From Eledone cirrhosa (taxonomy: Eukaryota), in assembly GCA_964016885.1 (NCBI GenBank), contig OZ024742.1, forward strand, positions 118,296,001 to 118,360,000: a stretch of 64,000 bases of DNA, given 5' to 3'. Positions within the stretch are counted from its first letter, which is position 1, and each line of letters begins with the position of its first letter. Positions 18,010-55,087 of the stretch are shown here, piece after piece. The notes under the pieces are model-generated. The model had not been told where the DNA came from. It searched no databases and was given only the letters and a program-made list of their open reading frames with translations. The translations under genes were made by a program, and so were the position numbers.

Positions 18010-18245
<236 letters not shown>

Positions 18246-18250
<5 letters not shown>

Positions 18251-18455
18251 AACGAGTAGGACCCCGACGGCTGAGCTCAGGCCGTTTCGACGCCTAATTC
18301 TGGACTAAAAAAGTTTAGTCCAGAATTAGCCGTCGAAACAGCTTGAGCTCAGCCGTCGGGGTCCTACTCGTTCCTATTACCCACTCTACTACCCTAAATA
18401 TTGAGTACTTTGGTGCGTTATGGTCCACCTGGTTCCTTACCACATTCCCTTCGTT
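18246..18455 (+). mobile_element. Palindromic element (family P) built from two inverted hammerhead 3' halves plus a unique tail, inside (TA)n
   Basis: 132-bp near-perfect palindrome at 18246-18377. The tail gtgcgttatggtccacctggttc is shared, inverted, with 35572-35610. Confidence 0.75.
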
Positions 18456-18805
18456 ATATATATATATATATATGTTGTACACACACGGTAAACAGCGGAG
18501 GCCCCGTGTTGTCCCTCTCTAACACAACCTTTTTCCCCTCGGAAAACCCCCAGTTGATGGATGCGGAATCCGAAATATAGGGACTATTAAATCACTTCCA
18601 AGGTAACTCTATCTCGTGTTATTATTTTTTACATTTTTCCTATGTTCCTTTACGCTCTCTACGTCTCTTCCTACAATTCCTCTTACATGTCTCTCTAATT
18701 AACACCTGATTTTGTTACCCGGAGATTTATCCATCTGCATTGTTGAGGCTTCCAAAACGACTATTTTTATTATCCTACAATGCTTCAAGCAAACTTCAAC
18801 ACTCT

Positions 18806-24604: not shown

Positions 24605-24740
24605 TTAGAGAGTCGAGGTTCGACGACTGAGCTTTTGCCGTTTCGACTGCAAATTCCACTGTCGAAACGGCAGGAGCTCAGCCATCGGGCCCAAACTCTC
24701 TAATATATTTATTCTCTGTTATCCTAAGTACTCTGTTGAA
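24605..24740 (+). mobile_element. Palindromic element family P, diverged copy
   Basis: cgacgactgagcttttgccgtttcgac..gtcgaaacggcaggagctcagccatcg, next to (TA)n/(TG)n. Confidence 0.7.
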
Positions 24741-24743
24741 TAC

Positions 24744-24925
24744 TTGTTTCTACCTTTTGGCACAAACCCAGCAATTATCCAGTGCATTACTGGTACTTTA
24801 TTTTATCGACCCCGTAAGGATGAAAGGCAAAGTTAACCTCGGCGGGATTTGAGCTCAGAATGGCAAGCGCCGTAACTCTATGCGTCAAAGCATGGCGTCC
24901 GAACCTCTACCGATACTGCCAATTC
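24744..24925 (-). mobile_element. SINE family A
   Basis: Family match. Confidence 0.88.
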
Positions 24926-26935: not shown

Positions 26936-27014
26936 GATGTTCCCTGATGAGCTGTGACTTCTCACAGTACTAAAAAAACCTGCGATTATTCTGCGAAACT
27001 GCAGTCGGGACATC
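26936..27014 (+). ncRNA. Type I hammerhead ribozyme, intact catalytic core
   Basis: Stem I GATGTTCC/GGGACATC; CTGATGA at 26944-26950; stem II closed by GC/GC; GAAAC-TGCA-GTC at 26995-27006. Confidence 0.82.
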
Positions 27015-35255: not shown

Positions 35256-35337
35256 ATTCGTTTTTTTAATTATTTTTGCGAGATTTCTTATCTGAAAAGG
35301 TGTGTTGAAACAGATACTGTTATACTTTGGGAGGGTC

Positions 35338-35554
35338 ATGCTGCCAATAAAAACACGCACCTGTTCAATTCAATTTATTATAAGTTTCCGGTTGGTTGGT
35401 CGGTCGGTTGGTTAGGTAACGGGAAGGTTGTTTATATATTGTCAAAGCTCTTTCGTCACACACTCTATGACCTTTGTTGTGTCCTACACCAACCGAAAAC
35501 TTAAAATAAATTGAAGTGAAAAGCAACAGGTGCGTGTGTTTTTATTGGCACCAT
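35338..35554. repeat. Inverted-repeat element with ~60-bp arms
   Basis: catgctgccaataaaaacacgcacctgtt..ttcaatttatt..aagtttccggttggt mirrors accaaccgaaaactt..aataaattgaa..aacaggtgcgtg..tttttattggcaccatg. Confidence 0.7.
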
Positions 35555-35571
35555 GTTTTTATTGGCAGCAA

Positions 35572-35731
35572 AGAAAGTGTTGTAAAGAACCAGGTGGACC
35601 ATAACGCACTCGTGGGTCATAGGAAAAGGTTCATGATCCCGACGGTAGAGCTCAAGCCGTTTCGACGGCTATTTCTGGAGTCCAGAAATAGCCGTCGAAA
35701 CGGCTTGAGCTCTGCCATCGGGGTTAAACAT

Positions 35732-35735
<4 letters not shown>
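35572..35735 (-). mobile_element. Palindromic element family P, third copy
   Basis: Palindrome at 35635-35725 plus the inverted tail shared with 18412-18447; abuts (TA)n. Confidence 0.75.
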
Positions 35736-35814
<79 letters not shown>

Positions 35815-54206: not shown

Positions 54207-54254
54207 AACATTTGAAAAGATGGCTTTTGCAGACCCATCGAAACCGGTCATTTT
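54207..54254 (+). ncRNA. Degenerate hammerhead motif
   Basis: TTGAAAA (in place of CTGAAGA)-GATGG..CCATC-GAAAC-CG-GTC. Confidence 0.45.
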
Positions 54255-54512: not shown

Positions 54513-54560
54513 GGACCGTCCTGACGAAGGCCAGTTAAGCCTGAAATGCATAGACTGTTG
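54513..54560 (+). ncRNA. Minimal type I hammerhead ribozyme
   Basis: gaccgtc-CTGACGA-AGGC-cagttaa-GCCT-GAAA-TGCA-TA-gactgtt. Confidence 0.8.
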
Positions 54561-54753: not shown

Positions 54754-54809
54754 ACTGCCTGATGAGGTCATAGTCATTCAATGGCTAATATCGAAATATA
54801 TATAGCAGT
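54754..54809 (+). ncRNA. Minimal type I hammerhead ribozyme
   Basis: ACTGC-CTGATGA-GGTcaTAGTCAT-tca-ATGGCTAatATC-GAAA-TATATA-TA-GCAGT, followed by AATAAA. Confidence 0.82.
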
Positions 54810-55035: not shown

Positions 55036-55087
55036 GAATGTCACTGATGAGAGATTAAATGAATCTTGAAACAGCTATTTGTCATTC
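55036..55087 (+). ncRNA. Type I hammerhead motif with one stem III mismatch
   Basis: GAATGtCA-CTGATGA-GAGATT-aaatg-AATCTT-GAAAC-AGCT-ATT-TGtCATTC. Confidence 0.7.

What the first reader, a model, noticed from the sequence alone, without database searches (positions are those of the whole stretch)
18246..18455. Family P: palindromes made of two inverted hammerhead 3' halves, with no CUGANGA
Seen: three copies (18246-18377, 24605-24703, 35635-35725), all beside (TA)n. The arm consensus is GTC-GAAAC-GGC-ttGAGCTCa-GCC-GTC-GGG. This equals HHR stem II strand, GAAA box, a 5-bp stem III with palindromic loop, GUC cleavage triplet and stem I strand. The symmetry centre is where stem II/loop 2 would be, and the catalytic CUGANGA strand is replaced by the mirror arm. 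Two copies share a unique tail, so the unit moves or is regenerated as a family. Inference: it forms by fold-back at stem II during PLE reverse transcription. The RNA would be a ~45-60-bp dsRNA hairpin (siRNA/ADAR substrate against the parent), or a substrate half cleavable in trans by the parental ribozyme strand. I know of no description of this geometry.
Basis: partly seen in the sequence, partly recalled or inferred. Interest (0 to 1): 0.74.

Follow-up and report, generated by a model that had tools for sequence, protein, structure and literature searches.

The report
Penelope stubs record ribozyme cuts
These small DNA palindromes are the shortest insertions of a very abundant Penelope-like jumping gene, a known insertion shape; they likely form when both cut DNA ends copy the same RNA, and a minority stop exactly at the predicted ribozyme cut site, which would show that this ribozyme cuts in living cells.

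Summary
The three palindromes are real. They are not a separate element but the shortest insertions of a Hydra-type Penelope-like retrotransposon (3,531-bp unit, RT plus GIY-YIG; about 41,500 exact tail matches in G000). Each is (TA)n, inverted end without tail, junction, sense end with a ~80-nt tail, (TA)n: the published inverted-pLTR-plus-tail layout. The parent does have the hammerhead 5' half, but its core is YUGANAA (U3-A8 type), not CUGANGA. Junctions differ copy to copy (47 of 48), so stubs are made afresh. Fold-back of one cDNA fails for 15 of 96 copies. Both arms come from the same subfamily (55 of 57) and stop together, which fits two reverse-transcription starts on one sense RNA. 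Most arms stop 12-24 nt before GAAA (likely an RNA 5' end; untested). In 22 of 52 innermost junctions both arms stop exactly one base 3' of GUC with an untemplated linker, a likely fossil of in vivo self-cleavage. No RNA data, no covariation. The scan's earlier notes report the same reading on other DNA of this and other genomes.

The parts
18207..18248 (.). (TA)n target, tail-less side of copy 1
18247..18309 (-). Copy 1, tail-less arm: PLE pLTR from about -24 to the short end (+41/+42, numbering G of GAAA = 0); GAAA at 18288-18285, GUC at 18268-18266 on the minus strand
18310..18313 (.). Copy 1 junction spacer (4 nt) between the two arms, in the upper stem II region of the parent
   Evidence: same class as (5,307 loci)
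18314..18377 (+). Copy 1, tail-bearing arm: stem II 3' strand, GAAA (18335-18338), stem III with palindromic loop, GUC (18355-18357; predicted cut after 18357), stem I 3' strand
18378..18456 (+). Tail (~80 nt): stretch of the parent 5' region between the short end and the long end, inferred to lie between two RT start sites
   Evidence: PMC11167929
18455..18473 (.). (TA)n target, tail side of copy 1
24605..24703 (+). Copy 2: older, diverged two-armed stub (arms about 75% complementary), tail-bearing arm on the plus strand
24704..24745 (+). Copy 2: decayed tail
   Evidence: local alignment to the L221 tail
35619..35739 (-). Copy 3: two-armed stub, tail-bearing arm on the minus strand, arms stopping at about -18 and -15; (TA)n follows at 35737-35812
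35578..35618 (-). Copy 3: tail with an internal deletion of about 26 nt; abuts an unrelated inverted repeat, not (TA)n

Best explanation
The palindromes are the shortest insertions of a Hydra-type Penelope-like retrotransposon, and they likely form when both DNA ends of one cut in (TA)n prime reverse transcription on the same sense RNA at two internal start sites, both cDNAs likely run off the RNA's 5' end, and the two are joined head to head. Shown: parent element, two fixed outer ends (+42 and +122), one of each per insertion, variable junctions, arm concordance, coupled arm lengths, a sharp minor junction class one base 3' of GUC. Inferred: the two outer ends are RT start sites (by analogy to PMC11167929); the +23 class comes from self-cleaved RNA; the main stop zone (-12 to -24) is a transcription start inside the hammerhead's stem II (least certain step, about 55%). 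On this model the stubs are dead-on-arrival by-products without a catalytic strand, because the RNA they were copied from began downstream of it.
For: Parent: 3,531-bp tandem units 99.95% identical, 784-codon frame (717 aa from the first Met), hammerhead-like motif then tail then ORF; nearest Atlas clusters at 0.96-0.99 carry HTH_animal, GIY-YIG and RVT_1. Continuum of arm lengths from ~20 bp to >4 kb. 20 of 20 long two-armed loci (chosen for having two 5' halves) have one short and one long end; 94 of 96 tails run into (TA)n. Junctions: 47 of 48 distinct. Arms share subfamily in 55 of 57, 22% expected at random. Tail-less arm reaches GAAA while the tail arm does not in 15 of 96 (20 flagged by script, 5 dropped by eye as mutated or internally deleted), and is the longer arm in at least 6 long loci. 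Coupling: 21 opposite-strand pairs against 57 singles among the first 100 of 7,979 5'-half matches, read by eye; 4-11% pairs expected if arms were independent, P<=9e-5. Stop zone: 85 of 120 arms that pass GAAA but not the core end at -12 to -24; contig depth drops about 15-fold across it. Cleavage footprint: of 52 loci in the first 100 rows (782 matches), read by eye, 22 have both arms ending at +23 with an untemplated linker (13 with 2-7 nt, 9 with 1 nt), none has both at +22 with a linker of 2 nt or more; (373 loci, 50 listed, overlapping) gives 19 such, 12 blunt, 9 ambiguous, 10 with one arm off by one. Searches show the class in whole (TA)n-bounded insertions, in at least three subfamilies.
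Against: No RNA evidence for a start site or a cut. No compensatory change in the hammerhead stems (0 pairs in 22 sequences, 93% mean identity); Rfam gives no hammerhead match; fold z-scores are only -0.4 to -2.3 and one of four parents (C3-A8 core) folds otherwise. About 4 in 10 of the first 100 matches have C3 with A8, a mismatch at a pair that matters for catalysis (PMC11167929). The stop zone is broad (12 nt), not a single base; none of the long copies examined ends there. The TATA-like word 29 nt before A(-18) is present in L221 but differs in other subfamilies (consensus recalled), and D. virilis Penelope has a TATA-less promoter (PMC2377424 passages). The extra C expected from a cap is only suggestive (7 C, 1 T among 30 arm ends; no parent has the matching base, 0 of 68). 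2 of 57 arm pairs are discordant, and mixed long/+23 junctions exist (704 matches, mostly not at +23). The 96-copy sample is from the first 17 Mb of contig C1 only. Pfam finds only RVT_1 at E 0.073.
Confidence: 0.7

Rival explanations
1. Same two-ended priming, but the main stop zone is a structural stall of the RT in stem II, or pairing of the two cDNAs through the stem II hairpin, not an RNA 5' end; the +23 class would be a stall at the foot of stem III.
For: The stop zone coincides with the predicted upper stem II; 213 palindromes centre on the self-complementary loop III word; several centres are short self-complementary words.
Against: Independent stalls predict mostly long/short pairs, but long arms come in pairs; most junctions have 0-2 nt of overlap or untemplated letters; the +23 class is single-base sharp and occurs in the subfamily whose stem III is weakened by a G-U pair.
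Confidence: 0.15
2. First reader's model, close to the published self-priming model: one cDNA (or an antisense RNA, PMC3846280) folds back at a hairpin and copies itself.
For: Arms are concordant (55 of 57); centres cluster near a predicted hairpin; PMC3846280 reads junction palindromes as self-priming.
Against: 15 of 96 copies and at least 6 long loci have a tail-less arm with sequence absent from the tail arm; loops of 0-1 nt are common and too short to prime; both arms ending at the sense-strand cut site is not expected from an antisense template.
Confidence: 0.08
3. Stubs are long inverted insertions whose centres were deleted after insertion (palindrome instability).
For: Some copies show deletions between short direct repeats (L118, L122, L109); the 9 of 50 ambiguous junctions fit a 3-nt direct-repeat deletion.
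Against: Does not explain the fixed stop zone, the single-base +23 class or untemplated linkers; copies matching the young L221 subfamily are already stubs.
Confidence: 0.05
4. A non-autonomous palindromic element (MITE-like or retrozyme-like) that amplifies as a unit.
For: Very high copy number and fixed outer ends.
Against: 47 of 48 junctions differ; ends are asymmetric and shared with ORF-bearing copies; no tandem monomers of the stub in the 96 copies read.
Confidence: 0.02

Closest known systems
Hydra clade of C-terminal EN+ Penelope-like elements (Craig et al. 2021, PMC8557442; section 11, section 20, passages and supplement rows read), e.g. Hydra-1_Obim
   Same: Single ORF with RT and C-terminal GIY-YIG, DKT, CxCx5C linker, CxxC and CxH motifs, no CCHH, (TA)n target, hammerhead in the terminal repeat.
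   Different: Unit is 3,531 bp (described Hydra elements are generally under 3 kb; Hydra-1_Obim 2,507 bp); RWR for RWK; hammerhead core YUGANAA with a very long stem II rather than canonical; no tree was built here.
Inverted 5'-truncated pLTR plus one-sided tail of EN+ PLEs (Arkhipova 2013, PMC3846280, passages and Discussion; PMC8557442 Fig. 2 legend)
   Same: Head-to-head inverted arms, tail on one side only, tandem full-length units.
   Different: Tail is ~80 nt rather than 30-40; most insertions here are 100-210-bp stubs; the evidence favours two cDNAs from a sense RNA over the proposed self-priming on an antisense template.
Poseidon PAc in vitro mechanism (Frangieh et al. 2024, PMC11167929, parts 1-2 of 4 read)
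   Same: Two internal RT start sites bounding the tail; both DNA strands cut and extended; AT-rich target; hammerhead upstream of the starts.
   Different: That paper found no RNA reads beginning or ending at the cut site and does not treat the inverted junction in the parts read; here genomic junctions pile up at the predicted cut.
PLE hammerheads (Cervera and de la Pena 2014, PMC4209133, parts 1-2 of 4 read)
   Same: Type I motif in pLTR, U3-A8 core variant, unpaired bases at the 5' end of stem II, palindromic loop 3, pairs on opposite strands 100-700 bp apart.
   Different: Here stem III is 5-6 bp (could act as a monomer), stem II is about 55 nt, and most copies lack the 5' half.
R2 ribozyme cut site read from 5' junctions (Eickbush et al. 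2013, PMC3774820, abstract only)
   Same: Logic: genomic junctions record where the ribozyme cut the template.
   Different: HDV-like ribozyme, single-ended insertion into rDNA, activity shown in vitro.

Membership tests
EN+ Penelope-like element | Single ORF with RT and GIY-YIG endonuclease | tested here: met
   717-aa ORF with YRDD and VIY...YIG motifs; Atlas neighbours with RVT_1, GIY-YIG, HTH_animal; Pfam only RVT_1 at E 0.073, none; no PDB match
EN+ Penelope-like element | Tandem units forming pLTRs; inverted 5'-truncated copy; one-sided tail | tested here: met
   (20 of 20 selected long pairs)
Hydra clade | DKT, CxCx5C linker, CxxC and CxH around the EN, no CCHH, RWK | tested here: met
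   Read from the L221 protein against PMC8557442 section 11; RWR instead of RWK
Hydra clade | Insertion into (TA)n | tested here: met
   94 of 96 tails followed by (TA)n
Hydra clade | Phylogenetic placement of the RT with Hydra references | not tested
   No reference proteins were fetched; no tree built
Type I hammerhead (parent) | Three-way junction with stems I-III, GAAA, NUH | tested here: met
   MFE folds of 3 of 4 parents; 97% of cells paired
Type I hammerhead (parent) | Canonical CUGANGA core | tested here: not met
   G8 in 14 of 2,352, C3 with G8 in 3; core is YUGANAA, 7,979 matches; U3-A8 is a described variant; position 7 varies freely
Type I hammerhead (parent) | Covariation in stems | tested here: inconclusive
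   0 compensatory pairs, but sequences are 93% identical
Type I hammerhead (parent) | Self-cleavage after NUH | not testable with these tools
   Indirect only: junction pile-up one base 3' of GUC
Hammerhead (the stubs themselves) | Catalytic strand present in cis | tested here: not met
   Absent from all three window copies; kept in 8 of 96 tail-anchored copies
MITE of a DNA transposon | Symmetric terminal inverted repeats, fixed internal sequence, target-site duplication | tested here: not met
   Asymmetric ends, 47 of 48 junctions distinct, ends shared with an RT-bearing element; a TSD cannot be read in (TA)n
Non-LTR retrozyme | Tandem non-coding monomers each with a complete type I hammerhead | tested here: not met
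   Not seen in 96 copies; the tandem arrays found are full ORF-bearing units

The most novel reading that the evidence does not exclude
The tens of thousands of stubs are a genomic record of the 5' ends of a Penelope-like RNA: they show that PLEs insert by priming twice on one sense RNA, that the RNA starts inside the hammerhead's own stem II (so the ribozyme can only form at the 3' end of read-through transcripts), and that a U3-A8 hammerhead cuts in the germline, something not shown in vivo for PLE hammerheads in the papers read.
Probability: 0.45. Interest if true: 0.68.

Novelty: new member of a known kind. Interest (0 to 1): 0.45.

Why it matters
The object itself is an ordinary by-product of a known retrotransposon class. 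What it adds is a large natural dataset on two open points: how PLEs build their inverted ends (PMC8557442 and PMC11167929 call this unresolved; PMC3846280 proposes antisense self-priming) and whether PLE hammerheads cut in vivo (PMC4209133 says in vivo evidence is absent; PMC11167929 found no reads at the cut site). Both become testable with one 5'-end sequencing experiment and one cleavage assay. It also shows that CUGANGA-only searches miss this family's roughly 8,000 hammerhead-like copies.

Tried and rejected
Rfam on the window and on the parent pLTR: only microsatellite-driven miRNA hits, no hammerhead. Pfam and PDB on the ORF: nothing significant. RNA: no RNA holder listed; this is no evidence on expression. 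Joints table gave too few strand switches to map junctions. DIRS, piggyBac and Helentron readings (recalled leads) were dropped once the RT plus GIY-YIG ORF appeared. Type II hammerhead reading dropped: no core downstream of GUC. A direct genome-wide count of two-armed stubs at all spacer lengths was not obtained; only sub-classes were counted. One search's gapped extension mis-scored several loci, so arm-end counts are taken from one search, which under-reads mutated copies. Long copies ending at the proposed start site were looked for among 45 loci and not found. Literature: 8 searches answered; none listed a paper on hammerhead-half stubs or cut-site junctions in PLEs, but subscription papers, Repbase entries and most supplements were not seen; the hammerhead file of PMC8557442 (File S2) was not read and may describe the motif of Hydra-1_Obim. 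Look-up of earlier notes by sequence gave nothing.

Full report
Observation. The three palindromes are present as described. Copy 1 is (TA)n, a 64-nt inverted arm, a 4-nt spacer, the mirror arm, about 80 nt of tail, (TA)n. Copy 3 is the same on the minus strand with a damaged tail; copy 2 is an older relative beside (TG)n with a decayed tail. A 19-nt arm word has 62,608 exact matches in G000 and the tail word 41,496, against 0 for controls. Numbering below: G of GAAA = 0, GUC ends at +22.

Parent. Widely spaced arm pairs enclose an ORF with RT and C-terminal GIY-YIG motifs. A protein search found tandem arrays; L221 holds 3,531-bp units 99.95% identical, each with the hammerhead-like motif, the tail and a 784-codon frame whose first Met gives 717 aa. 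The protein has DKT, CxCx5C, CxxC and CxH and lacks CCHH, the marks given for the Hydra clade, which also targets (TA)n (PMC8557442 section 11; a Hydra-1_Obim row stands in its supplement). The Atlas gives 0.99 neighbours in cnidarian and ctenophore clusters and related clusters with GIY-YIG and RVT_1; Pfam and PDB add nothing significant. No tree was built.

Ribozyme. Upstream of the arm the parent has the missing half: four C that pair with the four G after GUC, then YUGANAA, then a long stem II. The core has A at position 8 in all of the first 100 matches and G in 14 of 2,352; a looser pattern gives 7,979 matches. Position 7 varies freely, as in hammerheads (recalled). U3-A8 is a described PLE variant (PMC4209133). 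Three of four parents fold into the three-way junction as their MFE, with modest z-scores. There is no covariation at this low divergence and no Rfam match. So 'no CUGANGA' is true of the whole family, and the stubs lack the 5' half by truncation.

Anatomy. I read 96 of the first 100 tail matches. 94 tails run into (TA)n; 48 have GAAA on both arms, with 47 different junctions; 8 keep the 5' half on an arm. Twenty long loci chosen for two 5' halves all have one end at +42 and the other at the tail end, and contigs of runs X1 and X4 show loose ends into (AT)n at both places; X5, another organism, shows the long end (X1 may be the assembly's own sample). This is the published inverted-copy-plus-tail layout, and PMC11167929 ties the tail to two internal RT start sites with both DNA strands extended.

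How the arms arise. Fold-back of the tail-primed cDNA needs the tail-less arm to be contained in the tail arm. In 15 of 96 copies it is not (20 flagged, 5 dropped by eye), for example L128, L140, L162 and L170, where the tail-less arm joins straight into the tail; the same holds for at least 6 long loci. Yet the arms are not independent: 55 of 57 pairs share a subfamily against 22% expected, and long arms come in pairs far more often than chance (21 pairs, 57 singles by eye). Two cDNAs from one RNA, or from like RNAs, fit both facts. Later deletion explains a few copies but not the pattern.

Where the arms stop. 85 of 120 arms that pass GAAA but not the core stop at -12 to -24, though the two arms start 80 nt apart; 5,307 loci have both arms reaching -18 with up to 16 nt between; depth falls about 15-fold there. 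I infer an RNA 5' end: L221 has a TATA-like word 29 nt before an initiator-like word at -18 (consensus recalled), and 7 of 30 arm ends carry a C that no parent templates, against 1 T. This is weak: the zone is broad, the TATA-like word varies, and no long copy ended there. A stall in stem II remains possible. 213 palindromes centre on the self-complementary loop III.

Cut-site footprint. Among innermost junctions, 22 of 52 loci listed have both arms ending at +23, the first base after GUC, with an untemplated linker; 13 of these linkers are 2-7 nt long, and no locus has both arms at +22 with such a linker. Seven more are blunt (ambiguous through a CG overlap), 2 are blunt with a mutation, 7 have one arm off by one or two bases, 8 are ambiguous and 6 lie elsewhere. 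One search counts 373 such loci and gives 19 of 50 unambiguous (overlapping). The pattern limits what can be seen, and tallies are by eye. The fetched examples are complete (TA)n-bounded insertions, several from the young L221 subfamily with the U3-A8 core. That is under 1% of insertions, and it is what run-off at the 5' end of a self-cleaved sense RNA would leave, as argued for R2 (PMC3774820, abstract). It speaks against an antisense template (PMC3846280).

Model. Shown: parent, ends, junction variety, concordance, coupling, +23 peak. Inferred: a transcript that begins in stem II carries the two RT starts near its 5' end, so priming there gives two short run-off cDNAs and a stub; read-through transcripts from tandem arrays give long two-armed copies; cut transcripts give the +23 class. 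The stubs cannot cut in cis. Whether their RNA feeds siRNA or ADAR, or is cut in trans, was not testable.

Prior art and verdict. Layout, opposite-strand hammerhead pairs and the U3-A8 core are in print; eight literature searches listed nothing on cut-site junctions in PLEs, within the limits of the library. The scan's own unchecked notes, consulted after this reading was formed, report twin priming, RNA-start and cut-site footprints for other families here and in other genomes; they are not independent support. Verdict: new member of a known kind; interest 0.45, carried by the testable footprint and not by the palindrome itself.

Noticed in passing
window 26940-27010 (+): A canonical type I hammerhead motif (CUGAUGA core, long stem II, palindromic stem III, GUC) of another family, found by a relaxed descriptor.
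   Followed up: no
window 54208-54253, 54518-54555, 54756-54807, 55042-55079 (+): A cluster of four minimal hammerhead-like motifs within 900 bp, one with a U3-A8 core; possibly PLE ends of other families.
   Followed up: no
window 35337-35569: An unrelated ~230-bp element with imperfect inverted ends and internal GGTTA/GGTTG repeats, directly abutting the tail of copy 3.
   Followed up: no
L082:2386-2447, L092, L246, L058; L241:2555-2618: Other hammerhead families in G000 also use A at position 8 (UUGAAAA or CUGAGAA cores), so the variant is not confined to this element.
   Followed up: no
L221-L228 (e.g. G000:C1:437198500-437216400): Near-identical tandem arrays of intact 3,531-bp units, some joined head to head with arms over 4 kb: the element looks recently active.
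   Followed up: partly
L104, L099, L169: Odd junctions: L104 jumps from -18 to an upstream part of the element; L099 has the small core hairpin inverted in place; L169 has arms of two subfamilies.
   Followed up: no
window 24760-24880: SINE-like repeat beside copy 2, resembling mollusc tRNA-derived SINEs (recalled, not tested).
   Followed up: no
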